Sequence record: OR670491
Direction: 5' to 3' (one strand)
DNA: 64,000 nt
From: Escherichia phage vB_EcoM_JNE01
Position numbers and translations under genes: made by a program. This document shows, one piece after another, positions 274-54,151 of this stretch. How positions within the stretch are numbered: position 1 is the first letter of the stretch; each line of letters begins with the position of its first letter. The notes under the pieces were generated by a model, which was not told the DNA's origin, did not search any database, and saw only the letters and a program-made list of their open reading frames with translations.

Positions 274-1407
274 ATGTCCGAGAAAGAAATCAACCCTAAA
301 AAATCAACTGCTAAAGCCGCTAAAACTGTACGTCGCACGACCAAAGCAAAAGGTAATACTTTTGATTCGAGTGATATCTTTGAACAGACAACTAAATCTC
401 TACCAGTACTGAAAGATGCCAAAGGCAACAGCATGTCTCTTACCGTTGAGAACATCAATACCATCGGTACTTCTGCTGGTGCTAACGTTGGTCGCCTGGC
501 AGACCAGATTATGTCTAAAGTGAACGTAACTGATGACAACTCTGAGTTTGGTCAGTCCATCACTACTATTCTGTCTCTGACCCGTGCTGTTGATATTGAC
601 AGTCTTCAGGATGATAAGTCCATCGTTGGTTGGGTACGTAAACTCTTTGTTAATGCTAAACAGAAAGTTGGCGACCAGTACAAAAACAGTAAAGAGCAGA
701 TTGATGAAATCATGAACACTCTCCAGACTGGCATTAACCGTCAACATGGTGAATGTGAGTGGCTTGATACTGCTTACAATGAAAACAAAAACTACCTTTT
801 CGAACTGCGTGATACCTTAGCAGAACTGGAAGTAGTAACCAAGTCACAAGATGAACGTCTAACTGAAATGCAAGCAGATAGCGAAACTGATACCTTCGCA
901 ATCCAAGAGCAGAAGATGATCTGTGAAGCCCTGTCTAAGCAGGAAGATAAGATTCGTCGTCTGATTATCATGTGTGAGCTAAGTGCTCCACGTCTGATGA
1001 GCATGAAGAAAGTAAACCTGAACACTGTTTCTAAGTTTGAAGATCTGAAATCTGTTGTTATTCCAGCATGGAAATCCCAACTGGCAGAGCAGTTGATTTC
1101 TGAACGTCAACGTAAAGACAATGAATTGGGTAATTTGATTGATAACGAAACTAACCGTTTGTTGGAAGTCAACTCTAAGATGGTAGCAACTAACATGCTA
1201 GATGCTGCTAAAGCAAATAACCGTGGTATTGTGGATATCAAAACATTGCGTAACGTACATAAAACTACAATCGACGGCATCGAAGCTGTACTGATTGAAG
1301 AGAAGAAAGGCAAAGAAGAACGTGAGCGTGCTAAAGTTGAGCTACTACAGCTTTCTCATGACCTCGAAAACACTCTGCGTGAAATTGCAGATAAATCTAA
1401 CAAATAA
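274..1407 (+). CDS. hypothetical coiled-coil protein (possible TelA-like; unverified)
   Basis: 377-aa ORF; GAGGA RBS upstream; E. coli-optimal codons (CGT/CTG/GAA); Lys/Glu-rich heptad-like segments. Confidence 0.6.
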   Translation: MSEKEINPKKSTAKAAKTVRRTTKAKGNTFDSSDIFEQTTKSLPVLKDAKGNSMSLTVENINTIGTSAGANVGRLADQIMSKVNVTDDNSEFGQSITTILSLTRAVDIDSLQDDKSIVGWVRKLFVNAKQKVGDQYKNSKEQIDEIMNTLQTGINRQHGECEWLDTAYNENKNYLFELRDTLAELEVVTKSQDERLTEMQADSETDTFAIQEQKMICEALSKQEDKIRRLIIMCELSAPRLMSMKKVNLNTVSKFEDLKSVVIPAWKSQLAEQLISERQRKDNELGNLIDNETNRLLEVNSKMVATNMLDAAKANNRGIVDIKTLRNVHKTTIDGIEAVLIEEKKGKEERERAKVELLQLSHDLENTLREIADKSNK

Positions 1408-1489: not shown

Positions 1490-2176
1490 ATGAAACGTCG
1501 TCATGTTGCAGTTGATATCGAATGTTTGGGTACACCAGAAAACTCCGGTTATGACATTATTATTCCTAACTATGCAGTTGTTATGGTTCCATCCAAACCA
1601 ACTCACAACATCACTAATTTTTTCTATGTTAAACAGCCTTACCAAGCACAGGTAAATGCTGGTTTGAAATCCGATGCTTCCGCTATGAGCTTTTGGATGA
1701 ACAAATGTGCTAAAGAGTATCCAGGTGCTTATGAAGAAGTAGCCAGTACTATGGATTTGGCAACTGCTGAAATCTACACCTCAAATGGTAAAGCGAAGAA
1801 AATCTTCCCAAATGACTTGATTGCAGAATTTTGGGATGAATTGCGTTATCATTATGGTGAAGAAGTTCCACATTCGGTATGGGGTAATGGTTGCCACTTC
1901 GATTGTAGTATCCTTGAAGCTAACCATCGCAAACTTTACGGCAAAACCGGAATGTGGAGTTACGATGCACCAGATAATGCTCGCACTATCAAACGCTTAC
2001 TGAATGATGCAGCACGCCAGGAAATGGATGAAATTGTGGCAGTACAGTTACCTAAATTTGTACAGTTCGCAGAATCCTGTGATGTTAAGGGTTTAGAGCT
2101 ACATCACCCACTGTTTGATGCTGCACGTGAAGCAATTCAGATTTCTTACTGTCTCAATAAATTGAAATTGGATTAA
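1490..2176 (+). CDS. DEDDh-type 3'-5' exonuclease (DnaQ/RNase T/DexA-like)
   Basis: Exo I-like VAVDIECLG, Exo II-like GNGCHFDCSIL, Exo III-like HPLFDAAREA; 228 aa. Confidence 0.6.
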   Translation: MKRRHVAVDIECLGTPENSGYDIIIPNYAVVMVPSKPTHNITNFFYVKQPYQAQVNAGLKSDASAMSFWMNKCAKEYPGAYEEVASTMDLATAEIYTSNGKAKKIFPNDLIAEFWDELRYHYGEEVPHSVWGNGCHFDCSILEANHRKLYGKTGMWSYDAPDNARTIKRLLNDAARQEMDEIVAVQLPKFVQFAESCDVKGLELHHPLFDAAREAIQISYCLNKLKLD

Positions 2177-2177
2177 T

Positions 2178-3275
2178 ATGATGAATTTTGTTATCTTACT
2201 TATTCCGTCTTTGATTGTTGTTCTGGTTATGAAGTACATGTACGACCACACTATCAGTACTAAAGAGTTTTTCATTCATCTTTGTTCTTGTGTCGTGGGT
2301 GCATTATTGGTTCTTTGTGTTTCATATGCAATTAACTACAGTCAGCTTCATGATGTTGAAATCCTTAATGGACATGTAACATCAAAATACAACCACACTG
2401 AGTTCTGCACACCGAGTAGTTCATGTAAGCACTATACTTGGCATAAGAAGTGTCATACCAGTTATGATAGTAAGGGTAGAACACATCGTGAGTGTGAATC
2501 ATATAAGGTCTTTGATTATTCATACGAAGTTGATTGGTACGTTGACAGTACTGTAGGTAAGTTCGAAATTGAACGAGTGAATCGTCAAGGAACAATGACT
2601 CCACCAAGATGGAGTGTAGTTAAGATTGGTGATTATGCCGCCGCAGAGCATAACTATATCAACTATCTATTTGCTGATGAGCATTCATTGTTTAGTGAAA
2701 AACAAATCACTGAAGTATACGATCCTGAATACTTAGAACGTATTCCGACTTATCCATCGATTAGTAATTATTATAAAACATACCATGTTATTAATAAAAC
2801 TAATTATGATGTATCTGGTTTGAATGAGTATTTGATTGAAGAACTAAAAACAATGGGGGAACGTAAACAAGTAAACATTCAAGTACTTGTGTATCCTTAC
2901 CTTGATGTGAACTTTGTTGATGCTACATTAGCTGCATGGCGTGGTGGTAAGAAGAACGATGTGATTATGTTCTTTGGTATTGATGGTGATGGTACAGTGA
3001 AGAAATTCGATAGTACTTCATTCGCTAAAGGTATGAATAACGAAGATCTGCATTCTCAAATGCGTATGGATTCGTTAAATGAGAAATTATCGCTTGACTT
3101 GTTGAAGGTTCAGGTGCATAATATTGATACAAAGTTCCAGAGACTATCCAATCAAGAATTTGAATATCTCTCTGTTAAAATGGAACCACGTAAGGATGTT
3201 ATGATTATCGCTTCATTCATCCTAATGCTACTGTCAATCGTAATTGGTAATTACATGAGGAAAGTTGATTTATGA
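2178..3275 (+). CDS. membrane protein with N- and C-terminal TM segments (possible TPM-like partner of LemA)
   Basis: Hydrophobic N-terminus (FVILLIPSLIVVLV) and C-terminus (VMIIASFILMLLSIVIG); overlaps next gene by 4 nt. Confidence 0.55.
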   Translation: MMNFVILLIPSLIVVLVMKYMYDHTISTKEFFIHLCSCVVGALLVLCVSYAINYSQLHDVEILNGHVTSKYNHTEFCTPSSSCKHYTWHKKCHTSYDSKGRTHRECESYKVFDYSYEVDWYVDSTVGKFEIERVNRQGTMTPPRWSVVKIGDYAAAEHNYINYLFADEHSLFSEKQITEVYDPEYLERIPTYPSISNYYKTYHVINKTNYDVSGLNEYLIEELKTMGERKQVNIQVLVYPYLDVNFVDATLAAWRGGKKNDVIMFFGIDGDGTVKKFDSTSFAKGMNNEDLHSQMRMDSLNEKLSLDLLKVQVHNIDTKFQRLSNQEFEYLSVKMEPRKDVMIIASFILMLLSIVIGNYMRKVDL

Positions 3276-3826
3276 ATACTAAAGTAATGGTACTACTGGG
3301 CTTCTTGGTTGTTGTTATGATTGGTTGTTTTGGCGTAGTAAGTATGTTTACTGGTGCTCATGACCGTGCAGTAGAGTTTGAAGGAAATATTAAGAAGTAC
3401 TATGATGCTTCCGAAAGTCAACTAAGTAATTACACACTGAAAATCCAAGAGAAAAACCAAATAGCTGATAAGTACAAAGACGCACTAAAAGATACTATTG
3501 AAGCATATTTCCGTGGACGTGAAGGTGTTGACCAGAAATTTGTAATGTCACAGATTCAGCAACAGATTCCAAATCTTGATCCTAAGATTTATCAAGAAAT
3601 GATGGTTACAATTGATGCGGGTCGTGATAAATTCAACAACCTCCAGAAAATGAAAATTGACCAGTGTACCGATTATGAAAAATTCCGTAAAGGGTTCTGG
3701 AACTCCAAACTTCTAGATACCGCCGTGTTCCCTGGTAAAGACATTGAGCATCTATGTACTGTAGTTTCTGATGTACGAACTAAGAAAGCAATGCAAACTG
3801 GTATTCAAGAAGTAATTAAACTGTAA
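3272..3826 (+). CDS. LemA-like membrane protein (tentative)
   Basis: N-terminal TM followed by a ~160-aa domain whose C-terminal half (IPNLDPKIY...AGRDKFN...YEKFRKGFW) resembles the LemA family pattern. Confidence 0.5.
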   Translation: MNTKVMVLLGFLVVVMIGCFGVVSMFTGAHDRAVEFEGNIKKYYDASESQLSNYTLKIQEKNQIADKYKDALKDTIEAYFRGREGVDQKFVMSQIQQQIPNLDPKIYQEMMVTIDAGRDKFNNLQKMKIDQCTDYEKFRKGFWNSKLLDTAVFPGKDIEHLCTVVSDVRTKKAMQTGIQEVIKL

Positions 3827-10917: not shown

Positions 10918-11178
10918 ATGACTAAAGTAGTTCGCAAACGCCACATGATGAACATGGATGAATTCCGTACTTTTGACAAATATCGTACAATGTTCCGTAT
11001 GCTGTCTAAGGGCCACCCTATTGTTATTGTAACTGAAAGTTACATGTCACCAGAGATGATGTTTGGAAACTATGAAAAGGTCTTTATGCTTTATGTGAAG
11101 CGTGAACTTCTAACTATTAAAACATTAGCAGAAGCCACTGATGAAGATATGGATGGTGATAATACATTCACCATGTGA
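10918..11178 (+). CDS. hypothetical protein
   Basis: 86-aa ORF. Confidence 0.5.
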   Translation: MTKVVRKRHMMNMDEFRTFDKYRTMFRMLSKGHPIVIVTESYMSPEMMFGNYEKVFMLYVKRELLTIKTLAEATDEDMDGDNTFTM

Positions 11179-11255
11179 GGATGTTATGCAAGATAAACCG
11201 AAAGAACCACTTGACCGTGACGATGATTTCTATGATGAACGATACGGAGAGAAAG

Positions 11256-11513
11256 ATGAATGAGCATAATGCAGTACTGAAAAAGATTATGTCAGAACTT
11301 GGCAGTGAGCTTGCTGTAACTGAAGAAGAATACCAATCATGGAAGAAAGATTTCGAACAACTTCCTGAACATGATAAAGTGTTTAATCTTCTTGGCGTAA
11401 TCAGCCAGTACTTACTAAGTGCAGGTGAAAGTAAAGCAGCATCTTCAATCCTTGCATCTGCAATCATTTGTACTTCACGTTGGTGTGACGAAAAATCTCT
11501 GGATGATTTCTAA
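11256..11513 (+). CDS. hypothetical protein
   Basis: Track ORF 11175-11513 trimmed to the ATG at 11256, preceded by a GGAGAGA RBS. Confidence 0.45.
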   Translation: MNEHNAVLKKIMSELGSELAVTEEEYQSWKKDFEQLPEHDKVFNLLGVISQYLLSAGESKAASSILASAIICTSRWCDEKSLDDF

Positions 11514-11565
11514 ATACTGTGCTATAATGAATTTATAGTACAACAATATAAAAAAAGGATTTTAT

Positions 11566-13455
11566 ATGAAACCAATCAGAGTACTGTCACTTTTTAATGG
11601 AATGAGTGTGGGATACATGGCACTTCAAGATGCTGGTATCCCAGTTGAAACGTATTACTCTTCCGAAATTGATAAGTATGCTATTGCTGAATCCCAAGAG
11701 AATTTCCCTGATATTATCCAACTAGGTGACGTTACCAAGTGGAAGGATTGGGATATTGAATGGGATAAGATTGACCTCCTTATGGGAGGGTTCCCGTGTT
11801 TCCCTGAAGGAACAATGATAATGACCGACAAAGGTCACAAAGATATTAAAGACATTCAAATTGGTGACATGGTACTAACTCATACTGGTCAATATCATCC
11901 AGTATTGAGTACAGGTGTTAAAAAAGCCCCTACGCGTATTATTTCAGGGCAAGGACATTTACCTATTGAATGTACTGATAATCACCCATTTTATTCTAGA
12001 AAAATGTCGTCTAGCTGGAATAACAGCATTAGACAATATGAACGTTCCTTCACTGAACCTGAGTGGATTGAGGCACACGAATTAACATCTGAACATTTTC
12101 TTTGTAATGTTAAATCAATTGAATCAGGTAAATCAACAAAAGATGAAAAATTCTGGTATTTTATGGGCCGCTTTATGGGTGATGGATGGACTTATAAAGT
12201 AAAGCGAAATAATAGAAAGAATAGTTACCAGTATAGAGTTTTCATCTGTTGTGCACATGATGAATTTGATGAATTGATTTCATGTTTTGAAGGTATGAAC
12301 ATGAAATATAATTATGTCAAAGAAAGAACATCATATAAATTTTATATATGTTCAAAAGAACTAGTTGAATTCTGTGAACAGATGGGTAAAGGTGCATCTA
12401 ATAAGAAAGTTCATCCTAATTTATTCAATGAATGTGTACAGAACCAGAAAGCATTCATTGATGGATATTTTGACGCAGATGGTCATGTTGATAGTAATTG
12501 TTATAAATTCACAACAACATCAATAGACTGCGTATTAGGTGTCCAACAATTAATAATGAATGTTTACGGAAGACATTCCAACATAAGCCTTACAGAACCA
12601 GAAAAAACTAAAGTTATTGAAGGACGAATTGTAAACCAAAAACCGTATTATGTTTTATCATATAAAAAAGACCAACCTAAAAAAGAGGAAGCTTTTTATG
12701 AAGAAAATTATTCATGGGTTAAAGGTGTAAAAACGAGTATTTCTACTGGTGAATGGAAAACTGTATATAATTTTGAAGTTGCCGTTGACAATACTTATAC
12801 CGCAAATAACATAGTTGTTCACAATTGTCAAGCCTGGTCGGTTGCAGGTAAACAGGGTGGAATAAATGATCCAAGAGGAATGTTGTTCCATACAATGGTT
12901 GATATTTACGAGCACATCAAAAGTCTCAATCCAGACTTGAAAGTACTGTTCGAGAATGTTAAAATGAAAGACGATTTCAAGCAATACATCAACAGTATTC
13001 TTGATATGACACCAGTACTGATAAATTCCCATAATTACACGCCTCACTTCAGACAACGTTATTATTGGTACAGTTCTGATAAATTACTAACTCCACCTGC
13101 ATTAATGAATGCACCTGTGCTTCAGGACATTCTGGATGATGGTTGGTATACTGACCGTACCGCTTCGTACTGTATAGATGCCAACTACTTTAAGGGTGGT
13201 GATTGTAATCAATACTTCAATAAGTCCAGGCGACAATTGGTGTTCAAGAACCCTGATATCAATCGTCAGTACTTACTTGAGAATGGTAAAAGAAACATTG
13301 ACTACCGTCACTTAAGTGTAGTAGAATGTTGTAAATTGCAAGGTGTACCAACTGATTATTTCAAGTTATCTAGTAATACACAGGCATATAAAATGCTAGG
13401 GAACGGTTGGACAATGCCAGTCATTTCACATTTGCTTAAAGAGATATTCTTTTAA
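11566..13455 (+). CDS. DNA (cytosine-5)-methyltransferase (Dcm-like) interrupted by an in-frame intein
   Basis: Motif I LFNGMSVGY; motif IV GGFP|CQAWSVAG split by a 343-aa insertion; motif VI ENVK; motif X MLGNGWTMPV. Confidence 0.85.
   Translation: MKPIRVLSLFNGMSVGYMALQDAGIPVETYYSSEIDKYAIAESQENFPDIIQLGDVTKWKDWDIEWDKIDLLMGGFPCFPEGTMIMTDKGHKDIKDIQIGDMVLTHTGQYHPVLSTGVKKAPTRIISGQGHLPIECTDNHPFYSRKMSSSWNNSIRQYERSFTEPEWIEAHELTSEHFLCNVKSIESGKSTKDEKFWYFMGRFMGDGWTYKVKRNNRKNSYQYRVFICCAHDEFDELISCFEGMNMKYNYVKERTSYKFYICSKELVEFCEQMGKGASNKKVHPNLFNECVQNQKAFIDGYFDADGHVDSNCYKFTTTSIDCVLGVQQLIMNVYGRHSNISLTEPEKTKVIEGRIVNQKPYYVLSYKKDQPKKEEAFYEENYSWVKGVKTSISTGEWKTVYNFEVAVDNTYTANNIVVHNCQAWSVAGKQGGINDPRGMLFHTMVDIYEHIKSLNPDLKVLFENVKMKDDFKQYINSILDMTPVLINSHNYTPHFRQRYYWYSSDKLLTPPALMNAPVLQDILDDGWYTDRTASYCIDANYFKGGDCNQYFNKSRRQLVFKNPDINRQYLLENGKRNIDYRHLSVVECCKLQGVPTDYFKLSSNTQAYKMLGNGWTMPVISHLLKEIFF
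11797..12825 (+). mobile_element. intein with LAGLIDADG homing-endonuclease domain, inserted at the MTase catalytic PCQ motif
   Basis: Begins C-F-P-E-G-T-M-I-M-T-D-K-G (Hint block A); ends NIVVHN followed by +1 Cys; two LAGLIDADG-like motifs (YFMGRFMGDG, FIDGYFDADG). Confidence 0.8.
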
Positions 13456-13456
13456 T

Positions 13457-13936
13457 ATGAACTATTTCCAAGACCGTAATAAAATACAAATTGCTCGTAA
13501 TCACAGAGCGAAGAAGGAGACTTTACGTTTCAATACACATTACCCTTTCGTCGGTGACACAGTACTGTATGAATGTTATACAAAAAAGAAAGTGTTTGTT
13601 GGCTCTGGTATTGGTACGGTCTTGGATATTAAACAATATTATTCGGATAAGATGCGTGTCAAATACACCGTACAGGATAATACAACAAACGAAGTATACG
13701 AGGTTATGTACAACGTCCATGTTTATCCATTGGATACGGTTGTTCTACTTACAAGAAGAGAAAAAACTATGTTTTACAGTGGCTATGATAAACTAACTAA
13801 TCAAATTATTCCTAATACTTTAGGTAAATTTAAAACTGACACAGAACAAGCACTCGTTAGTAAACTGGGTGTGGACTGGAAAAAAGAAAATTCTTTTATT
13901 GAAATTCGTCTAGTTGAAGTTACACTAAAAGACTGA
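13457..13936 (+). CDS. hypothetical protein
   Basis: 159-aa ORF directly after the MTase stop. Confidence 0.5.
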   Translation: MNYFQDRNKIQIARNHRAKKETLRFNTHYPFVGDTVLYECYTKKKVFVGSGIGTVLDIKQYYSDKMRVKYTVQDNTTNEVYEVMYNVHVYPLDTVVLLTRREKTMFYSGYDKLTNQIIPNTLGKFKTDTEQALVSKLGVDWKKENSFIEIRLVEVTLKD

Positions 13937-13999
13937 TATAATACTATCCACGTATACAATGCGTGGATTTTTTATACCCCCAAAAAAAGGTCAAATTAA

Positions 14000-14452
14000 A
14001 TGAAAATTGATGAGTTGGTGCATTTGCTTCCAAATGTTTACAAGAATGTTTTATTCACTAAAGAACTACATAAGCAAGGTTTCTCTGTTCGCCCAGCATT
14101 ACTTGCATCATCGTATCGATATGTAACAACATATGGAACGGTAGAATTCATTTCATATGACTATGAAGTAGACCCCGATTGTTATACATTATCTATTAGT
14201 ATATACAGTGAAGAGGAAGATTCTGGTCGTGAGATTAAAAATATTTCATATGATACTGATGGACAGTTTAGTCTTGAGTACTGTGATGATAGTATAGAAG
14301 AATTCTATTTAGAAGATGTAAATCGTTTGTGTGATGATGATTTTGTGTTCCAACAATCAACACTAACACCATTGGGTAATACTAATGGTAAAACATGGGA
14401 AACCTGTTTGTATTATCTGCAAGCAATTTGCACAGCTTTTAAGGGGGTTTAA
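14000..14452 (+). CDS. EE-x-FFQxS-motif family protein (divergent)
   Basis: 150 aa; motif DDDFVFQQSTLTPL. Confidence 0.55.
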   Translation: MKIDELVHLLPNVYKNVLFTKELHKQGFSVRPALLASSYRYVTTYGTVEFISYDYEVDPDCYTLSISIYSEEEDSGREIKNISYDTDGQFSLEYCDDSIEEFYLEDVNRLCDDDFVFQQSTLTPLGNTNGKTWETCLYYLQAICTAFKGV

Positions 14453-22281: not shown

Positions 22282-22849
<568 letters not shown>

Positions 22850-22881
22850 TACTGATAAATATTAATGAAAGGTATAGAGAA

Positions 22882-23079
22882 ATGACTAAATCCGAACTTC
22901 TGGCTTTATTAGAAAATTATCCAGATGATGCATGTATTGAAGTAGTTCACACTGCACAACATTTTGACATTGAAGATGTTGTACGATACAATGACAAAGG
23001 TGTGATGATTATGGAACTATGTATCGGTGCTTTGAAAACTGTGCCAGAATCAACTAAACGAAAATCCCAAAAGGAATAA
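22882..23079 (+). CDS. hypothetical protein
   Basis: 65-aa ORF. Confidence 0.45.
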   Translation: MTKSELLALLENYPDDACIEVVHTAQHFDIEDVVRYNDKGVMIMELCIGALKTVPESTKRKSQKE

Positions 23080-23085
23080 AATATT

Positions 23086-23319
23086 ATGGAAACTAATACA
23101 ATTTTAGATGTAGTAAACAGTGTTAATACTGGTGACTTTGTTCACATTCTTTTATCCAACATCCGCGTTAAGGGTATTGTTGAAAGTGTTGATTCTGAAG
23201 TTCTAACTATTGTTGAAGTTGATCCATACGACAATAATAAATCAGTTCGTCTGTGCATTGATGTTTCCAAAATTGTAGCACTCGGTACAGAAATTATTAC
23301 TGAAGAAACTAATCTATAA
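23086..23319 (+). CDS. hypothetical protein
   Basis: 77-aa ORF. Confidence 0.45.
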   Translation: METNTILDVVNSVNTGDFVHILLSNIRVKGIVESVDSEVLTIVEVDPYDNNKSVRLCIDVSKIVALGTEIITEETNL

Positions 23320-23330
23320 AACGACAATAA

Positions 23331-23407
<77 letters not shown>

Positions 23408-23460
23408 CTTAAGAGGATTTAATATGTTTAAAGATGAACGTCCAGATTTGTAAATAATCA

Positions 23461-23489
23461 TTGACTAAATAATCCAGTACTGATAAAAT
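23461..23489 (+). promoter_or_regulatory. promoter with CAGTACTG spacer motif, upstream of tRNA-Ser
   Basis: TTGACT, 17-nt spacer containing CAGTACTG, TAAAAT. Confidence 0.5.
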
Positions 23490-23495
23490 AAATTT

Positions 23496-23582
<87 letters not shown>

Positions 23583-23589
23583 TCAATAT

Positions 23590-23671
<82 letters not shown>

Positions 23672-23692
23672 ATTTTAATTTAAGGTGTATCC

Positions 23693-23857
23693 ATGACGCA
23701 TGAAGAATGGATGAATGATATTAATTTTAGATATTCGGGTATCGGTAGTTGGCGAAAATATCATTGGGAAATTATATCAGACCCAGCAGAATACGATAAA
23801 CTTATAAACCATGAAGTATATCCGTGGTTCTTTATTGAAATAATGGTACGAATATGA
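23693..23857 (+). CDS. MTHEEW-family micro-protein (54 aa)
   Basis: MTHEEWMNDINFRYSG...; first of three tandem copies. Confidence 0.45.
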   Translation: MTHEEWMNDINFRYSGIGSWRKYHWEIISDPAEYDKLINHEVYPWFFIEIMVRI

Positions 23858-24018
23858 CGCATGAAGAATGGATGAATGACATTAATTTTAGATATTCGGG
23901 TTTCGGTAAATGGCTAAAGTATCATTGGGAATTTATTACTGATCCTCAAATGTACGATAAACTTATAAATGATCAAGCATATGAAATTTACTTATTTGAA
24001 ATACTGGTCAGAACATGA
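23854..24018 (+). CDS. MTHEEW-family micro-protein (54 aa)
   Basis: Near-identical N-terminus to previous; ATGA overlap. Confidence 0.45.
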   Translation: MTHEEWMNDINFRYSGFGKWLKYHWEFITDPQMYDKLINDQAYEIYLFEILVRT

Positions 24019-24179
24019 CGCATGAAGAATGGATGAGAAAACAAAAGCTAACATGGAATCCTTATTGTTACCAGTTAGACCCAAGAATGTGGGATGTGAT
24101 ACGTATTAAATGTATGTACAAATCATTTCTTGGTGATATAATGGATGTTGAAGTACTGATGAATTTAGTACATCGATAA
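24015..24179 (+). CDS. MTHEEW-family micro-protein (54 aa)
   Basis: MTHEEWMRKQKL...; ATGA overlap. Confidence 0.45.
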   Translation: MTHEEWMRKQKLTWNPYCYQLDPRMWDVIRIKCMYKSFLGDIMDVEVLMNLVHR

Positions 24180-24209
24180 TAAAAATCTTATTTAAATGGG
24201 ATTGATATC

Positions 24210-24571
<362 letters not shown>

Positions 24572-24575
<4 letters not shown>

Positions 24576-24600
24576 CTAAATAGTTCAGTACTGATAAAAT
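24572..24600 (+). promoter_or_regulatory. promoter with CAGTACTG spacer motif
   Basis: TTGACT-AAATAGTTCAGTACTGA-TAAAAT. Confidence 0.5.
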
Positions 24601-24757
24601 GGTAAGGCGTGGAAATATGTTTACAGTAGTTACATAGTAGCCTGTACGCCCCACGTCAAGGTAGCCGAAAGGCAAGTTAAAAAGGGTGGTTATAAAGCTG
24701 AATTAACAGCGGCGTTTAAAAGCGTCACCATCCATTTTTTTAATTAAAGTTGGTGAT

Positions 24758-25259
<502 letters not shown>

Positions 25260-25264
25260 AAATC

Positions 25265-25354
25265 GGTCCCGTTGCCTAGCGTCCGAAGGCAGCCGACTCA
25301 TAATCGGTCACAGTTAATGACACGCCACTGGTTAGAATCCAGTCGGGACCACCA
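25265..25354 (+). tRNA. type II (long variable arm) tRNA with CAT anticodon; identity unclear
   Basis: Acceptor GGTCCCG/CGGGACC; anticodon arm GCCGA-CTCATAA-TCGGT; 18-nt variable region; atypical T-loop TTAGAAT; CCA encoded. Confidence 0.55.
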
Positions 25355-25358
25355 ATTA

Positions 25359-25431
25359 GACTCTGTAGTTCAGTTGGTAGAACGCTTCACTCATAATGAA
25401 GAAGTCGCTGGTTCAATCCCAGTACTGACCA
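25359..25431 (+). tRNA. tRNA-Met(CAT)-like; 3' acceptor strand not complementary (possible pseudogene)
   Basis: Canonical D-arm and anticodon arm CTTCA-CTCATAA-TGAAG, T-loop TTCAATC, but 5' GACTCTG does not pair with 3' ACTGACC; 3' end abuts the low-GC minus-strand gene. Confidence 0.45.
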
Positions 25432-25439
25432 CAAAAAAA

Positions 25440-27137
<1,698 letters not shown>

Positions 27138-27207
27138 AATATTCTCCTGAATTTTCTAAAAGTTATAATAATATTTAGTTACAATATTTATGATATAGAT
27201 TAAAAAG

Positions 27208-27236
27208 TTGAAATGTGTTCAAAAATGTGGTATAAT
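27208..27236 (+). promoter_or_regulatory. sigma70-type promoter
   Basis: TTGAAA, 17-nt spacer, TATAAT with upstream TG. Confidence 0.45.
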
Positions 27237-27242
27237 ACCTCT

Positions 27243-27486
<244 letters not shown>

Positions 27487-27514
27487 CTTTTTAATTTAAA
27501 AGTACTTTACTGTA

Positions 27515-28084
27515 GTGTTTAGTATCGTATATTGTAATCAAAAGGATATAATAAAACTCATGGAGAGAGTTGAAGAATGGCGTGATGTTGTTGGTTATGA
27601 AGACCATTTCCAAGTTAGTAACAAAGGTAGAATTTACAGCAAAAGAACAAATAAAATTTTAGTTCAAGGTACTAATAAAAAAGGTTATAAAGTATTAAGT
27701 ACTAGAATTGGTGGAAGAACTGGAGTATGTAAGTGTTTTAGGGTTCATATTTTAGTGGCTCAAGCATTTATATCAAATCCACATAATAAGCCCATTGTAA
27801 ACCATAAAGATGGCAATAAACAAAACAACGAAGACTGGAATTTAGAATGGTCTACATATAGTGAGAATACTAATCATGCTTATAAAAATGGTTTAACAAT
27901 ACCATTAAAAGGAACTGAACAAGTTCAATCCAAATTAACCGAAGATGATGTTAGATACATACGTTCAGTGTATAAACCATATGATAAAACATATGGTGCA
28001 TCTATGTTAGCAAAACAATTTGGTGTACATCATAGTTTAATATCGGATATAGCATCACATAAATCATGGAAGCATGTTAAGTAA
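27515..28084 (+). CDS. HNH homing endonuclease
   Basis: N-terminal motif EEWRDVVGYEDHFQVSNKGRIYS; HNH motif HILVAQAF...NHKDGNKQNN; low GC. Confidence 0.8.
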   Translation: MFSIVYCNQKDIIKLMERVEEWRDVVGYEDHFQVSNKGRIYSKRTNKILVQGTNKKGYKVLSTRIGGRTGVCKCFRVHILVAQAFISNPHNKPIVNHKDGNKQNNEDWNLEWSTYSENTNHAYKNGLTIPLKGTEQVQSKLTEDDVRYIRSVYKPYDKTYGASMLAKQFGVHHSLISDIASHKSWKHVK

Positions 28085-28103
28085 TAAAAAAACAGTACTG
28101 AAC

Positions 28104-28135
<32 letters not shown>

Positions 28136-28146
28136 CAAACATATTC

Positions 28147-28222
28147 GGCCCTGTATACAATCCAGGAATGTACTCTGCTCATAACAGATGTAAGGTCGGG
28201 GCAGCACCGACCAGGGCCACCA
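28147..28222 (+). tRNA. tRNA-like gene with CAT anticodon and non-canonical T-loop
   Basis: Acceptor GGCCCTG/CAGGGCC + A + CCA; anticodon hairpin TCTG-CTCATAA-CAGA; T-arm GTCGG-GGCAGCA-CCGAC (not TTCRANY). Confidence 0.4.
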
Positions 28223-28382
28223 ATTTTGGACACATTAATCTTCGATGGTAATGCTGGTTAATATCTTACGGCTGTAAAATGCAATACATTACATATTGCT
28301 TCAGGTACAGAGATATAAAGATTAATTAATAAGGTATCCTTATTTTGTCCAATCCTTAATAACTAGAAATGGTGGGAAAGAA

Positions 28383-28829
28383 ATGAAAGGTGTTTCAATT
28401 TTTTACGATTACCATGAACAAGGTTTACCACATCAGATTGCTGGAATCTATTCTACGTCTGATAAAACCGAAGAAGAGATGCGTACTGAATTATTGTCGC
28501 TAATTGGTGAGAGAAGTTTCCATGAACGTGATCAACCAATTTTCATTAACCACACACATTTGTATGCAAAAAGTTTGCTAGGTGAAGAACTTGATAAAAA
28601 GGTGGAATACACTTTGAAACAGTTCTTCCCAATCGCACTTGATGTAGTTGGTTTCAAATCATCGGATTTCAAGTTCATGTACTATGATGTTGAAGCATAT
28701 GAGTTCGCTTGGAACAATCGTTATCATAAACAATTACACCAATATCGTTTAGAACTTCAACATGAAGCGGCTGAAGCATATAAAGCAAAACGAGCAGCAC
28801 AGAAGCTTGAAGGTAACGTACAGAAATGA
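28383..28829 (+). CDS. hypothetical protein
   Basis: 148-aa ORF. Confidence 0.5.
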   Translation: MKGVSIFYDYHEQGLPHQIAGIYSTSDKTEEEMRTELLSLIGERSFHERDQPIFINHTHLYAKSLLGEELDKKVEYTLKQFFPIALDVVGFKSSDFKFMYYDVEAYEFAWNNRYHKQLHQYRLELQHEAAEAYKAKRAAQKLEGNVQK

Positions 28830-29128
28830 TAGAATCTATCTTATGTGTACTGTTGCCAATTTTAGTAGTTGCTTTGATATGTCTTTATTATGGTTACAGT
28901 ACTGTAATTGATAAAAAGCAAGTTTACGTCATTACATTCAGTACTACACATATTGAGTTTGGTAATGTACATACCGGTATCACTTATATTGCATATCGTT
29001 GTAAGTACTTCCATAAGTTCAAATCTTATGATATGATCTATTACTGTGATGAATCCAACGTGAACCGTTATATTGACATAAACGATGAATCAAAAAAATC
29101 GTTTTACAGTTTTAAAGAATTAAAATAA
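28826..29128 (+). CDS. hypothetical membrane protein
   Basis: 100 aa; hydrophobic N-terminus. Confidence 0.5.
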   Translation: MIESILCVLLPILVVALICLYYGYSTVIDKKQVYVITFSTTHIEFGNVHTGITYIAYRCKYFHKFKSYDMIYYCDESNVNRYIDINDESKKSFYSFKELK

Positions 29129-29208
29129 ATGTAGACGGATGTATTCAGTACTGAATCACCAGGGGAGGTTGTAATTCCCGATTCAGTAGCTTTTTAAGCG
29201 GTTTCGTG

Positions 29209-29255
<47 letters not shown>

Positions 29256-29256
29256 G

Positions 29257-29309
<53 letters not shown>

Positions 29310-29327
29310 CGAGGTACTCCGGTATGC

Positions 29328-29360
<33 letters not shown>

Positions 29361-29468
29361 AATATTGTTGCAACAGTATTCAGTACTACTTTTTAATTGA
29401 CACAACTTTGAATGAGGTGTATTATGTTCCAAGAAGAAAACTGGGGTTTTTAACATAAAGGGGAATGT

Positions 29469-29576
29469 ATGAAAGTGAGTAAAGAAACGGCTAAACAGCT
29501 TGAAGAACTTTGTTCAGCACAACCTATGCCTACACTTGCTTTAATCAAGTTAATGCGTCGAAATAAGCAAAAATAA
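29469..29576 (+). CDS. small hypothetical protein (35 aa)
   Basis: ATG after AAAGGGGAA RBS; below track size cutoff. Confidence 0.25.
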   Translation: MKVSKETAKQLEELCSAQPMPTLALIKLMRRNKQK

Positions 29577-29659
29577 AAATGATAAATAATACAGTAAGAT
29601 GACCTCCCCTCAATACGAAAGAGTATGGAGACTTGTTGGTTATCTTACTTCTTAAATTA

Positions 29660-29732
29660 GCCTTCTTAACTCAGTTGGTAGAGTAATCGCCTTGTAAGCG
29701 ATAAGTCATCCGTTCAAGTCGGATAGAGGGCA
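29660..29732 (+). tRNA. tRNA-Thr (anticodon TGT)
   Basis: Acceptor GCCTTCT/AGAGGGC; D-arm ACTC-AGTTGGTAG-AGT; anticodon arm ATCGC-CTTGTAA-GCGAT; T-arm ATCCG-TTCAAGT-CGGAT. Confidence 0.8.
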
Positions 29733-29734
29733 CA

Positions 29735-29816
<82 letters not shown>

Positions 29817-35964: not shown

Positions 35965-37122
35965 TTATGCAGTATAACCAACAATGACGATGGATGAATC
36001 AAACGGCTCTACAGATCGTACTGTAACGTTGTCATCAGCATCTAGTTCAATCTCACATAGTACTGTATGATTCATATCATCATATACTTGTACTTGTGGA
36101 TATAACTTACCATGTGTTGCTTTAGGTATACTTAGTGTATACATCATTTCAGAATCAACTACCCAATCACTTGAAAGTATTTCATCGAAGTAAGGTGTAG
36201 TCTGGATTGTTTTACCAATTACGCTCAAAGAGATTGGTTCATTATCACTTTGATATACAGTGATATTACCACTTGCATCTACATTGATATCAACACCAAT
36301 GAGAAAATCATTTGCGTTGTAAGCTTGTAGTACTAGATGATCGCCACGGTCATGCACGACTTCAGGTAGGACCGCTTTATATAGCCCATCACTTACGAAA
36401 TCAAACTGTGCCAGTGCGATGTTCGTCACAAATCCAATATCCTCACCTGATTCCAACACGTCAAACTCAACTGTTTTAGTATTGTATATATCGGAAGTAA
36501 GTATTACAGTTCCCTTACCTTGTTGTGTAATAGCATCAACAGGAATGCTAAACACGTCATCGATAATTTCAGTAGTAAAGTATTCAGTACCGTCAGGTAG
36601 GATTACTGTGATTTTCATACCAGTAGTATCAATCACTTCACCTGCGTTAAACAAGCGACCACCAACCAAATCGTCACCAACAAACACTGGGAACATAATG
36701 ATGTTATCAATGTCATGGTCTACAATCCCACATTCAGGGACGTACATATCATATAGAGTGGTTGAGCTACCTAGAATTGTTTTATGTAAGAGGAACTTAT
36801 AAACGAACCCGTTTGGATCAGTACTAAGATTTTGTTCAGTATGGCCTCGAATGAAGAAAGAGTTTTTCTTAATTTCACTGAGTAGTTGATCATTGGTTTT
36901 ATTGTAGTTAAGCTGATACCCATTCGTATCAGTTGTTGTTAGTTGTACTTTGCGATAGATAACGTTAGTTTTTGGATCTAGAATATCGTATAGTCTGTGG
37001 CTTCGTTGACGATAGATTCTCATGTTCTTGAGCTTCGTACCATCTTGTAAATACACACCATCAACAATATACCCACATTCACCAAACTTATAACGTCCAG
37101 CAGCAGCAATTGACCTTGACAT
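35965..37122 (-). CDS. hypothetical protein (minus strand); possible fibre/adhesin-like beta-rich protein
   Basis: Track ORF 35965-37182 trimmed to the ATG after a GGAGGGAG RBS; about 385 aa. Confidence 0.5.
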   Translation of the reverse strand: MSRSIAAAGRYKFGECGYIVDGVYLQDGTKLKNMRIYRQRSHRLYDILDPKTNVIYRKVQLTTTDTNGYQLNYNKTNDQLLSEIKKNSFFIRGHTEQNLSTDPNGFVYKFLLHKTILGSSTTLYDMYVPECGIVDHDIDNIIMFPVFVGDDLVGGRLFNAGEVIDTTGMKITVILPDGTEYFTTEIIDDVFSIPVDAITQQGKGTVILTSDIYNTKTVEFDVLESGEDIGFVTNIALAQFDFVSDGLYKAVLPEVVHDRGDHLVLQAYNANDFLIGVDINVDASGNITVYQSDNEPISLSVIGKTIQTTPYFDEILSSDWVVDSEMMYTLSIPKATHGKLYPQVQVYDDMNHTVLCEIELDADDNVTVRSVEPFDSSIVIVGYTA

Positions 37123-37238
37123 TACTCCCTCCATTGGTATAATAATTATAACGTATTTATTCCAGTTCATAAAAAATAGCACTTGACCACTAGTGATATT
37201 TGTTGTATTATTACGTGGAATATTGATAAGGGGATACC

Positions 37239-41957: not shown

Positions 41958-42920
41958 TTGAAAAAGCTAGATCTAAATGCAATTGCTGATGAAGTACTGG
42001 ATGAATGTTTTGCTAGTGAAGAAGTCAACGTATTAGAGGCAATTGATGCCGTTGAAGAAGAACATGATGACCACAAGTTCGAGAAGCCTAACACTGGTAT
42101 CAGTTTGACTCGTCCTAAAGGTGTAACGAATGAAATGCTCATCCAGGAAGTACGTGATGGCATTAACGTTGAAAAGAACATTGATCTTCTGGTACGTTAC
42201 AACTACCCAATGATTGTTAGTACTGCTCGTAAATGTACATGTTTCATCCCATTTGAAGATAAGATTTCATATGGTGTTGAAGGTTTAATGCGAGCGATTC
42301 ATACATTCGATCCTACCAAGAACGTTAAGTTCATTACCTATGCAACAACAACAGTGTATATGACAATCTATAACGAAAGTGCAGACGCTAACTACCTAGT
42401 GCACTTCCCACGTTATATGAGTGTTAACAACATTTATGTGAAACGTTGTGTAGAAGCGTACCAAAAGAAATATGGTAGGTTCCCAACTCCAGAGATGGTC
42501 GCTGAAGAGACTGGTATTGAGATTCAACACGTTAAGAATTGTCTAACCTACACCAATACTTATATGGCATTGGATATGAAATTGAGTACTGATTCAGAAA
42601 GTACCTTGTCTGACATTGTTACTACAGTTGATCCTGATTACAACTTAGGTGCAGAAACTATCAGTATCCCACTGGTACAAAGTATTGCAGATATGATGCA
42701 TAATCTATCTGAAAAAGACCGTGAGTTGATTGAACGTGTACATGGTATTGGTTCAGCACAAGAACCAGAAACGCTACGAGAAATCATTGAGAGCGGTTTT
42801 GAAGATGAGAAGGGTAAAGTCATTACTGCTCGTTCTTCCTTGCACCGTAAGTACTCTGACGCAATGGAACGCCTACGTAAGATGGTGAAGTCCAGAGGTT
42901 ATGAGTTCGAAGATTTTTAA
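41958..42920 (+). CDS. sigma70-family RNA polymerase sigma factor
   Basis: Region 2: GLMRAIHTFDPTKNVKFITYATTTVYMTI...FPRYM; region 4: LSEKDRELIERVHGIG...ETLREI...ARSSLHRKYSDAMERLR; apparent TTG start after GGAG. Confidence 0.7.
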   Translation: MKKLDLNAIADEVLDECFASEEVNVLEAIDAVEEEHDDHKFEKPNTGISLTRPKGVTNEMLIQEVRDGINVEKNIDLLVRYNYPMIVSTARKCTCFIPFEDKISYGVEGLMRAIHTFDPTKNVKFITYATTTVYMTIYNESADANYLVHFPRYMSVNNIYVKRCVEAYQKKYGRFPTPEMVAEETGIEIQHVKNCLTYTNTYMALDMKLSTDSESTLSDIVTTVDPDYNLGAETISIPLVQSIADMMHNLSEKDRELIERVHGIGSAQEPETLREIIESGFEDEKGKVITARSSLHRKYSDAMERLRKMVKSRGYEFEDF

Positions 42921-53972: not shown

Positions 53973-54151
53973 GGAACAGGTATGTATTTATATATCGCAA
54001 TTTCAAGTATTGTCTTTGTTGTTATCGTTACTGGATGGTTTGGGTATCTAATGTTAAGTACAAAATAGGTTGACTTCGGTCAGCCTTTTCTTTATACTAT
54101 AAATATAGTCATAGAGAATAAACCAATATGAAATCTATGGAGAGAAATCAA

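What the first reader, a model, noticed from the sequence alone, without database searches (positions are those of the whole stretch)
11566..13455. Intein with LAGLIDADG homing endonuclease inserted exactly at the catalytic Cys of a Dcm-type DNA methyltransferase
The methyltransferase motif IV reads GGFP followed by a 343-aa insertion that starts CFPEGTMIMTDKG (Hint N-terminal block) and ends NIVVHN (C-terminal His-Asn); the extein resumes with CQAWSVAG. Excising 11797-12825 restores a canonical GGFPCQAWS catalytic loop. The insertion carries two LAGLIDADG-like motifs (YFMGRFMGDG, FIDGYFDADG). Methyltransferase activity should therefore depend on protein splicing. Inteins in phage methyltransferases are uncommon, so this is a notable selfish element in an anti-restriction-type gene.
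Basis: partly seen in the sequence, partly recalled or inferred. Interest (0 to 1): 0.7.

Follow-up and report, generated by a model that had tools for sequence, protein, structure and literature searches.

The report
Mobile intein splitting a phage cytosine methyltransferase
A jumbo E. coli phage carries a selfish protein insert (an intein with its own DNA-cutting enzyme) exactly in front of the catalytic cysteine of its DNA cytosine methyltransferase; the call is correct and sequence comparison shows the element moved recently, but it belongs to a large family of such inserts.

Summary
ORF 11566-13455 (+) encodes 629 aa. Residues 78-420 (nt 11797-12825) form a 343-aa class-1 intein: Cys1, TxxH, two LAGLIDADG motifs, terminal His-Asn, +1 Cys. 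It lies between the Pro and the catalytic Cys of motif IV of a C5 DNA methyltransferase. In-silico excision restores GGFPCQAWS and a contiguous PF00145/TIGR00675 match. The AlphaFold model (pLDDT 90.7) matches the TliVMA, PI-SceI and PI-PfuI inteins.

Sibling phage Turkey5 has the empty site. Its exteins are 98-99% identical to the window except for the first 102 nt after the insertion point (73.5%; 27 mismatches per 100 nt against about 2; p=4e-23). That stretch matches other intein-bearing alleles, which is a co-conversion tract. Intein dS between the window and TH47 is 0.25 against 1.15-1.35 for the exteins, and the endonuclease dN/dS is 0.08. Together these indicate recent homing by a selected endonuclease.

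The site is not rare. It is occupied in 4 other Asteriusvirus genomes, in 6 distant phages, and in at least 131 of the top 150 metagenomic cluster representatives. A 2025 actinophage survey lists C-5 methylases as intein hosts. The window is therefore a new, unannotated member (its product is identical to a vB_EcoM_JNE01 'hypothetical protein') of a known kind. Splicing and cleavage are inferred, not shown. The -1 proline is a notable detail.

The parts
11566..13455 (+). Precursor ORF, 629 aa (73.2 kDa): N-extein + intein + C-extein. The product is identical to WOL22890.1, 'hypothetical protein' of Escherichia phage vB_EcoM_JNE01.
11566..11796 (+). N-extein, 77 aa. It holds C5-MTase motif I (LFNGMSVG, nt 11590-11613) and the first half of motif IV, ending GGFP (nt 11785-11796). 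The -1 residue is Pro.
11797..12825 (+). Intein, 343 aa (39.9 kDa), 32.1% GC against 37.6-41.1% in the exteins. Class-1 architecture with a Hint splicing domain interrupted by a LAGLIDADG endonuclease domain.
11797..11835 (+). Intein block A (CFPEGTMIMTDKG). Cys1 is the nucleophile for the N-S acyl shift.
   Evidence: (C1 nearly invariant)
11968..11997 (+). Intein block B (ECTDNHPFYS) with the TxxH motif: Thr60 and His63 in intein numbering.
   Evidence: (T60 and H63 nearly invariant)
12124..12681 (+). LAGLIDADG homing-endonuclease domain (approximate bounds, intein aa ~110-295, taken from the model's secondary structure). Motif 1 is YFMGRFMGDG at 12157-12186 and motif 2 is FIDGYFDADG at 12454-12483. 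Both keep the penultimate catalytic Asp.
   Evidence: I-DmoI TM-score 0.63-0.70 normalised to target; dN/dS 0.076
12763..12825 (+). Intein blocks F (VYNFEVAVDNTYTAN) and G (NIVVHN). The penultimate His and terminal Asn343 (succinimide formation) are present. The position that I recall as Asp in the canonical block-F consensus is Asn here and in nearly all relatives.
   Evidence: (N325 nearly invariant, N343 invariant)
12826..13455 (+). C-extein, 209 aa plus the stop codon. Its first residue, Cys (12826-12828), is both the +1 splice nucleophile and the catalytic Cys of MTase motif IV (PCQ). It also holds ENV (12946-12963), QRR (13048-13068) and GNG (13396-13422).
12826..12927 (+). Co-conversion tract: the first 102 nt of the C-extein (plus 2 mismatches in the last 4 nt of the N-extein, 11793-11796). 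It is 73.5% identical to the otherwise 98-99% identical Turkey5 allele but 90% identical to the intein-bearing TH47 and UE-S1 alleles. It encodes INDPRGMLFHTMVDIY.

Best explanation
This is a bifunctional class-1 intein, made of a Hint splicing domain and a double-motif LAGLIDADG homing endonuclease. It sits in the C5 DNA methyltransferase gene of an Asteriusvirus jumbo coliphage, and the encoded protein is identical to one of vB_EcoM_JNE01.

Shown by sequence: the element is translated in frame as a 73-kDa precursor in which the catalytic loop (motif IV, P-C) is split, so the precursor cannot be an active methyltransferase.

Inferred from the established class-1 splicing mechanism: Cys1 makes a thioester at the Pro77-Cys78 bond. 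The +1 Cys, which is the future catalytic cysteine of the enzyme, takes over the N-extein by trans-thioesterification. Asn343 cyclises to release the 40-kDa intein. An S-N shift then yields the 33-kDa methyltransferase reading GGFPCQAWS.

Inferred at the DNA level: the free intein cuts intein-less alleles at the motif IV coding sequence during co-infection, and repair from the occupied allele copies in the intein plus flanking extein DNA.

Shown by comparison: this lineage acquired the intein recently, by transfer of the intein plus about 100 bp of 3' flank onto a Turkey5-like backbone. Whether splicing and cleavage actually occur is inferred, not demonstrated.
For: Anatomy. The boundaries are exact and all class-1 nucleophiles and blocks are present. 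Hint_2 and LAGLIDADG_3 score above their Pfam cut-offs. The AlphaFold2 model has pLDDT 90.7 and pTM 0.89. Its best PDB matches are HEN-containing inteins: TliVMA 7qsu (E 1.5e-17, TM-score 0.72 normalised to query), PI-SceI, PI-PfuI and PI-PkoII. The central domain matches I-DmoI.

Host gene. Excision gives a contiguous C5-MTase match, PF00145 at 129.6 bits and TIGR00675 at 121.3 bits against a cut-off of 100.65.

Presence/absence polymorphism. Of 12 Asteriusvirus alleles read, 5 are occupied and 7 are empty at exactly the same codon boundary.

Mobility. The window is 97.9% identical to Turkey5 over 25 kb and 98.3-99.1% over the exteins. The exception is nt +1..+102 of the C-extein, at 73.5% (27 mismatches per 100 nt against about 2 per 100 background; binomial p=4e-23). 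That tract is 90% identical to intein-bearing TH47 and UE-S1. TH47 shows a longer tract (about -33..+210) on a different, G17-like backbone, which points to independent events. Six amino-acid states in the tract co-segregate 12/12 with intein presence. Intein dS between the window and TH47 is 0.25, against 1.15-1.35 for the exteins of the same pair.

Selection. dN/dS is 0.08 for the whole intein and 0.076 for the endonuclease domain.

Family context. The same P|C site is occupied in six distant phages and in at least 131 of the top 150 cluster representatives. Of these, 111 have both junctions recognisable and 107 end HN|C.

No intron family matches the region.
Against: No biochemical data exist, so splicing, cleavage and methylation are all inferred.

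The -1 residue is Pro. The literature reports that it blocks or strongly impairs splicing in most tested inteins (PMC6486613).

The position I recall as Asp in the canonical block-F consensus is Asn.

The methyltransferase may be dispensable, so an unspliced null allele could persist for some time. The Mannheimia phage homologue has an intact intein but a frameshifted C-extein.

The tract could also reflect ordinary recombination with an intein-bearing phage rather than endonuclease-initiated repair.
Confidence: 0.85

Rival explanations
1. Dead-end insertion. The element is a genuine intein by descent, but it does not splice efficiently in this context, so the gene is in effect a methyltransferase null allele that serves only to carry a homing endonuclease.
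For: The -1 Pro is unfavourable in tested inteins. Block F carries Asn where I recall Asp in the canonical consensus. Orphan phage methylases can be lost: the Mannheimia 587AP2 C-extein is frameshifted directly after CQS while its intein ORF is intact. The window's acquisition is recent, so little time has passed for extein decay to show.
Against: Cys1, TxxH, His-Asn and the +1 Cys are all intact. At least 106 independent 50%-identity clusters keep -1 Pro together with an intact HN|C junction and downstream MTase motifs. That long-term pattern is hard to explain without splicing. All five occupied Asteriusvirus alleles read (window, TH47, A4, UE-S1, ph0011) keep open, full-length exteins despite up to about 30% nucleotide divergence.
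Confidence: 0.1
2. Splicing-competent intein with an inactive endonuclease. The intein is now inherited only vertically or by ordinary homologous recombination between co-infecting phages, with no endonuclease-initiated homing.
For: Cleavage was not tested. Degenerate endonuclease domains do occur in this family: P0002 and P0009 lack the LAGLIDADG-1 region, and 18 of 111 relatives are mini-inteins under 200 aa. A mosaic tract can arise from any recombination event.
Against: Both LAGLIDADG motifs keep their catalytic Asp. dN/dS of the endonuclease domain is 0.076. The recombination tracts in two different backbones are centred on the insertion point. The intein is about five times younger by dS than its host gene.
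Confidence: 0.12
3. It is not an intein at all. Alternatives are an assembly artefact, a gene fusion, or a group I/II intron with an in-frame homing-endonuclease ORF.
For: None beyond the general possibility. Intron-borne LAGLIDADG genes are common in phages.
Against: The reading frame is continuous through both junctions. The Hint domain is detected by HMM and by fold. No Rfam intron family matches at E<=1. The same protein occurs on independent contigs. Homologous occupied alleles exist in four other isolate genomes.
Confidence: 0.01

Closest known systems
HEN-containing class-1 inteins with solved structures (PI-SceI / Sce VMA1, TliVMA, PI-PfuI, PI-PkoII)
   Same: The domain plan is the same: a Hint splicing domain interrupted by a two-motif LAGLIDADG endonuclease. 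Cys1, TxxH, His-Asn and the +1 Cys are present. The best structural matches are 7qsu (E 1.5e-17, TM-score 0.72 normalised to query), 1ef0/1vde, 1dq3 and 2cw7.
   Different: Sequence identity is only 10-18%. The host protein and insertion site differ. The element is smaller (343 aa against 366-537 aa). Pro occupies -1, and Asn occupies the block-F position I recall as Asp in the canonical consensus.
Inteins at the P|C (motif IV) site of other C5 DNA methyltransferases: Asteriusvirus TH47, A4, UE-S1 and ph0011; Mannheimia 587AP2; Propionibacterium B22 gp50; Lactobacillus Nyseid; Erwinia Y3; P1-like RCS47 Dmt; Pseudomonas Lana; and more than 130 metagenomic clusters
   Same: The insertion point is identical: between the Pro (Asp in Lana) and the catalytic Cys. 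The intein family is the same (24-95% identity over the full length). The termini follow the same pattern, CF..GT ... VHN|C.
   Different: The window's copy is a distinct allele: 95% aa identity to TH47, 77% to A4, and 54% to UE-S1/ph0011, whose endonuclease core is only about 40% identical. It sits on a Turkey5-like backbone. None of the deposited records I read annotates the intein.
Actinophage methylase inteins (Kelley et al. 2016 DNMT-1/2; Gosselin et al. 2023 Dorothy_75 family; 2025 ICE-BLAST survey)
   Same: These are LAGLIDADG inteins in orphan phage DNA methylases with patchy distribution and evidence of horizontal transfer between divergent exteins. The intein is a detectable homologue at about 28% identity. 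The 2025 survey lists C-5 methylase (IPR001525) among intein hosts.
   Different: The well-described cases are large N6/N4 (PF01555) methylases with a different insertion site. No paper I could search describes the C5 motif IV site, its -1 Pro, or any Asteriusvirus case.

Membership tests
Class-1 intein (Hint domain) | N-terminal Cys/Ser/Thr nucleophile (block A) | tested here: met
   Cys78 of the precursor is Cys1 of the intein. It is nearly invariant in alignment A1.
Class-1 intein (Hint domain) | Block B TxxH | tested here: met
   TDNH; T60 and H63 are nearly invariant.
Class-1 intein (Hint domain) | C-terminal His-Asn followed by a +1 Cys/Ser/Thr | tested here: met
   The junction reads ...VVHN|C. 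N343 is invariant and the +1 Cys nearly invariant. 107 of 111 relatives end HN|C.
Class-1 intein (Hint domain) | Canonical block F with Asp at F:4 | tested here: not met
   The block reads VYN rather than VYD, and the Asn is nearly invariant in this family. The canonical consensus is from my recollection of intein block definitions. This is a family-wide variant, not a lesion specific to this copy.
Class-1 intein (Hint domain) | Hint fold | tested here: met
   Pfam Hint_2 scores 33.7 bits against a cut-off of 28.4. The AF2 model has pLDDT 90.7. Foldseek top hits are solved inteins.
Class-1 intein (Hint domain) | In-frame insertion at a conserved site of a host protein, absent from orthologues | tested here: met
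   Seven intein-less orthologues have the uninterrupted GGFPCQAWS.
Class-1 intein (Hint domain) | Autocatalytic protein splicing | not testable with these tools
   This needs expression plus western blot or mass spectrometry. The -1 Pro makes the test non-trivial.
LAGLIDADG homing endonuclease (single-chain, two-motif) | Two LAGLIDADG motifs, each with a catalytic acidic residue | tested here: met
   FMGRFMGDG and IDGYFDADG. D228 and G229 are nearly invariant.
LAGLIDADG homing endonuclease (single-chain, two-motif) | Profile and fold match | tested here: met
   LAGLIDADG_3 scores 30.9-33.2 bits against a cut-off of 22.5. I-DmoI matches with TM-score 0.63-0.70 normalised to target.
LAGLIDADG homing endonuclease (single-chain, two-motif) | Site-specific cleavage of the empty allele, leading to homing | tested here: inconclusive
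   Cleavage cannot be tested here. The indirect signatures are positive: a co-conversion tract centred on the site, intein dS well below extein dS, and HEN dN/dS of 0.076.
C5 DNA cytosine methyltransferase (PF00145 / TIGR00675) | Profile score above the curated cut-off after excision | tested here: met
   PF00145 scores 129.6 bits against 22. TIGR00675 scores 121.3 bits against 100.65.
C5 DNA cytosine methyltransferase (PF00145 / TIGR00675) | Motifs I (FxGxG), IV (PC), VI (ENV), VIII (QxRxR) and X (GNG) | tested here: met
   LFNGMSVG; GGFP|CQ; LFENV; FRQRYYW; LGNGW. The assignment of these strings to motifs rests on my knowledge of the C5-MTase motif set.
Dcm proper (E. coli Dcm-like subfamily, NF007772) | Subfamily profile above cut-off | tested here: not met
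   20.7 bits against a cut-off of 710. The closest solved sequences are DNMT3A/3B, then M.HaeIII and M.HhaI.
C5 DNA cytosine methyltransferase (PF00145 / TIGR00675) | m5C methylation activity and target specificity | not testable with these tools
   This needs methylome sequencing of virion DNA or an in-vitro assay.

The most novel reading that the evidence does not exclude
The P|C-site inteins would be a natural family specialised to splice with proline at -1 while using the host enzyme's own catalytic cysteine as the +1 nucleophile. In the phage, splicing would be conditional, for example sensitive to redox state through the Cys1/Cys+1 pair, or to DNA binding. The intein would then act as a post-translational timer of methyltransferase activity rather than as a neutral parasite. 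The six extein substitutions that always accompany the intein (I/V-NDPRGMLFHTMVDIY against LNDIRGQLFLVMV-D/E-IF) would be co-adaptations needed for splicing, not mere hitch-hikers.
Probability: 0.1. Interest if true: 0.6.

Novelty: new member of a known kind. Interest (0 to 1): 0.33.

Why it matters
Biologically, this is a textbook selfish element in a probably non-essential phage gene, so it changes little about how inteins or phages are understood.

Its practical value has three parts.

(1) It corrects an annotation. The gene is labelled 'hypothetical protein' in vB_EcoM_JNE01, and none of the sister records I read marks the intein.

(2) JNE01 and Turkey5 form a near-isogenic occupied/empty pair: 97.9% identical over 25 kb, with exteins identical in protein outside a 100-bp tract. 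This is a convenient natural system for measuring intein homing and co-conversion in a jumbo phage.

(3) The family natively tolerates proline at -1, a junction that defeats most engineered inteins. At least 18 mini-intein relatives exist at the same site, which could interest protein engineers.

Tried and rejected
Literature. Ten full-text searches found no paper that describes an intein at motif IV of a C5 methyltransferase or any intein in Asteriusvirus. The hits concerned N6/N4 methylases of actinophages, apart from one catalogue-level mention of C-5 methylase hosts. Apparent leads led nowhere. The QuickDrop paper on junction specificity is not held.

Intron rival. An Rfam scan of 11000-14000 gave only two sub-threshold chance hits, so this was rejected.

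Endonuclease swap in UE-S1/ph0011. I looked for a closer donor of their divergent endonuclease core with tblastn. None in the phage collection is closer than the TH47/A4 type at about 40%. Module replacement and rapid divergence therefore cannot be told apart.

Sequence-only PDB search with the intein gave only weak hits (gp41-1 at E 2.8e-4, PI-PkoII at 1e-3). The fold search was needed.

The word-indexed homologue search returned only 14 proteins and badly under-reports the family. The exhaustive phmmer search with a junction-spanning query corrected this.

I did not fold the whole precursor, because the tools return no coordinates from which intein-extein contacts could be measured.
Full report
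**1. The observation.**
The window holds one ATG-to-stop ORF at 11566..13455 on the + strand, encoding 629 aa. GGFP occupies aa 74-77. A 343-aa segment follows, from Cys78 (nt 11797, CFPEGTMIMTDKG) to Asn420 (nt 12825...NIVVHN). The next residue is Cys421, followed by QAWSVAG. Removing nt 11797-12825 gives a 286-aa protein that reads GGFPCQAWS. The two LAGLIDADG-like strings lie at nt 12157-12186 and 12454-12483. Calculated masses are 73.2 kDa for the precursor, 39.9 kDa for the intein and 33.2 kDa for the spliced product.

**2. What the parts are.**
- Pfam finds C-5 DNA_methylase in the precursor (E 3.6e-31), split into three stretches. After excision the match tightens to two stretches and rises to E 2.2e-37.
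- TIGR00675 rises from 101.2 to 121.3 bits, against a cut-off of 100.65.
- Within the insert, Hint_2 (33.7 bits against 28.4) and LAGLIDADG_3 (30.9-33.2 bits against 22.5) pass Pfam's own thresholds.
- PHROGs matches the whole insert to the intein-bearing part of a phage NrdD family (E 4e-35).
- An alignment with 11 database relatives shows near-invariant Cys1, Thr60-x-x-His63 (block B), the Gly/Asp of both LAGLIDADG motifs, block F, the invariant terminal Asn343 and the +1 Cys.
- One deviation from the canonical class-1 consensus, as I recall it, is family-wide: block F reads VYN rather than VYD.
- AlphaFold2 with that alignment gives a confident model (pLDDT 90.7, pTM 0.89).
- Its best PDB neighbours are endonuclease-containing inteins: TliVMA 7qsu (E 1.5e-17, TM-score 0.72 normalised to query), PI-SceI, PI-PfuI and PI-PkoII. 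The middle domain matches I-DmoI.
- No Rfam intron model matches the region.

The insert is therefore a bifunctional class-1 intein and not an intron or a fusion.

**3. The host gene.**
The spliced protein has the C5-MTase motifs I, IV, VI, VIII and X. It is a C5 methyltransferase at superfamily level but not a Dcm orthologue: NF007772 scores 20.7 bits against a cut-off of 710. Its best matches among solved structures are the DNMT3A/3B catalytic domains, aligned over the full length at E 7e-22, ahead of M.HaeIII and M.HhaI. The intein lies between the Pro and the Cys of the PC dipeptide. The +1 splice nucleophile is therefore the enzyme's own catalytic cysteine, and the -1 residue is proline.

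**4. Source and relatives.**
The precursor is identical to WOL22890.1, a 'hypothetical protein' of Escherichia phage vB_EcoM_JNE01 (355,583 bp). The genome announcement for that phage does not mention an intein.

The first 25 kb of the window are 97.9% identical to phage Turkey5 over 93% of their length. Both are Asteriusvirus-like (121Q/PBECO4 group) jumbo phages.

Megablast of the gene finds 35 phage records. Only TH47 aligns over the full length (89.6%). Turkey5 (95.8%) and most of the rest align over the exteins only; UE-S1 and ph0011 also align over the 3' end of the intein. tblastn with the intein adds A4 (76.6% aa) and scores UE-S1 and ph0011 at 54%.

I read twelve alleles. Five are occupied (window, TH47, A4, UE-S1, ph0011) and seven are empty (Turkey5, Turkey3, 121Q, EC.P1, G17, phAPEC6, SD-2_S15). 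All share the same codon boundary.

**5. Evidence that the element is mobile.**
With the intein removed, the window and Turkey5 differ at about 2 positions per 100 nt over 6.9 kb. The first 100 nt 3' of the insertion point, however, carry 27 mismatches (binomial p=4e-23). Only two mismatches lie in the last 4 nt on the 5' side.

Segment by segment, window against Turkey5:
- N-extein: 98.3% identical.
- C-extein nt 103-630: 99.1% identical.
- C-extein nt 1-102: 73.5% identical, while the same tract is 90.2% identical to the intein-bearing TH47 and UE-S1.

TH47 shows the same pattern on another backbone. It is 94.6% identical to G17, with a longer tract of roughly -33..+210. This points to separate transfer events.

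The tract encodes six amino-acid states: [I/V]NDPRGMLFHTMVDIY in occupied alleles against LNDIRGQLFLVMV[D/E]IF in empty ones. These co-segregate 12/12 with intein presence.

Between the window and TH47, dS is 0.25 for the intein but 1.15-1.35 for the exteins, so the intein is much younger than the genes it sits in. dN/dS is 0.08 overall and 0.076 for the endonuclease domain alone.

These are the classic signatures of endonuclease-driven homing with co-conversion of flanking extein DNA, and of purifying selection on the endonuclease. They remain indirect. Ordinary recombination centred by chance on the site is not formally excluded.

**6. How common the arrangement is.**
The same P|C site is occupied by homologous inteins in several distant phages:
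- Mannheimia phage 587AP2 (GGTP|C...HN|CQS)
- Propionibacterium phage B22 gp50
- Lactobacillus phage Nyseid
- Erwinia jumbo phage Y3, the Dmt of P1-like phage RCS47, and Pseudomonas phage Lana

I then ran an exhaustive phmmer search of 1.84 billion cluster representatives. The query was a junction-spanning 160-aa segment, made of the 77-aa N-extein plus 83 aa of intein. It returned 96 hits at E<=1e-30, and almost all of the top 150 aligned in one stretch across the junction.
- 131 of the 150 have the ...P|CF..GT junction.
- 111 have both junctions recognisable, and 107 of those end HN|C.
- Insert lengths run from 134 to 391 aa: 18 are mini-inteins, 20 are intermediate and 73 are full size.

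This spread fits the usual homing cycle of invasion, endonuclease decay and loss. Related inteins also sit in phage NrdD, thymidylate synthase and N6/N4 methylases.

In the literature, mycobacteriophage N6/N4 methylase inteins are described. A 2025 actinophage survey lists C-5 methylase among intein hosts. I found no description of the motif IV site itself, nor of any Asteriusvirus intein.

**7. The proline at -1.**
The literature states that natural and engineered inteins generally fail or splice poorly with Pro at -1 (PMC6486613). Here -1 Pro is the rule: 131 of 138 recognised junctions. This cuts both ways. It is the main reason to keep a 'non-splicing' rival alive for this copy. Yet its persistence across more than a hundred diverged clusters with intact junctions and intact downstream methyltransferase motifs argues that the family has adapted to it.

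**8. Verdict.**
'Dcm-type' applies only at superfamily level. Methyltransferase inteins are not uncommon. Splicing dependence is inferred.

The best explanation, at confidence 0.85, is a splicing-competent, recently homed LAGLIDADG intein. The rivals are a non-splicing dead end (0.10), a splicing intein with a dead endonuclease (0.12; this overlaps the main explanation only on the splicing step) and a non-intein (0.01).

Novelty: a new, unannotated member of a known and, as shown here, large kind. Interest is modest. The useful extras are the near-isogenic occupied/empty phage pair with a clean co-conversion tract, and the native -1 Pro junction.

Noticed in passing
window 11566-11796 plus 12826-13455 (spliced extein): The 286-aa methyltransferase is closer in sequence to the mammalian DNMT3A/3B catalytic domains (E 7e-22, aligned over residues 2-281) than to M.HaeIII (1.7e-18) or M.HhaI (6e-18). 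Its N-terminus, KPIRVLSLFNG, nearly copies that of DNMT3A, KPIRVLSLFDG. It looks like a DNMT3-like phage C5 methyltransferase of unknown target specificity.
   Followed up: partly
L004 (UE-S1) 1770-3650 and L011 (ph0011) 679-2559: The UE-S1/ph0011 intein shares about 90% identical Hint termini with the window's intein, but its endonuclease core is only 23-45% identical. No closer relative exists in the phage collection. This is either replacement of the endonuclease module or very fast divergence inside an otherwise conserved intein.
   Followed up: partly
L005 (Mannheimia phage 587AP2) 1264-3100: The homologous intein ORF is intact, but the C-extein is frameshifted immediately after CQS. The record annotates two overlapping 'DNA methyltransferase' CDSs. 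This is a decayed host gene carrying an intact intein.
   Followed up: no
P0002 and P0009 (metagenomic homologues, alignment A1): These P|C-site inteins have lost the LAGLIDADG-1 region, so their endonuclease is degenerating. P0002 sits in an extein closely related to the window's and also carries the intein-linked DPRGMLFHT tract.
   Followed up: no
window 22282-29813: A cluster of eight tRNA genes on the + strand: Leu-taa, Gly-tcc, Ser-tga, an unusual Ser-act call, two Met-cat and two Thr-tgt.
   Followed up: no
window 274-1407 and 41958-42920: There is a TelA-family (tellurite/toxic-anion resistance) homologue (E 4e-39) and an ORF with sigma-70 regions 2 and 3. Four other ORFs of 365-614 aa (2178-3275, 25440-27137, 35965-37182, 54128-55972) have no Pfam match.
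   Followed up: no
window 11797-12825: The intein is more AT-rich (32.1% GC) than the flanking exteins (41.1% and 37.6%) and the window as a whole (35.0%).
   Followed up: no
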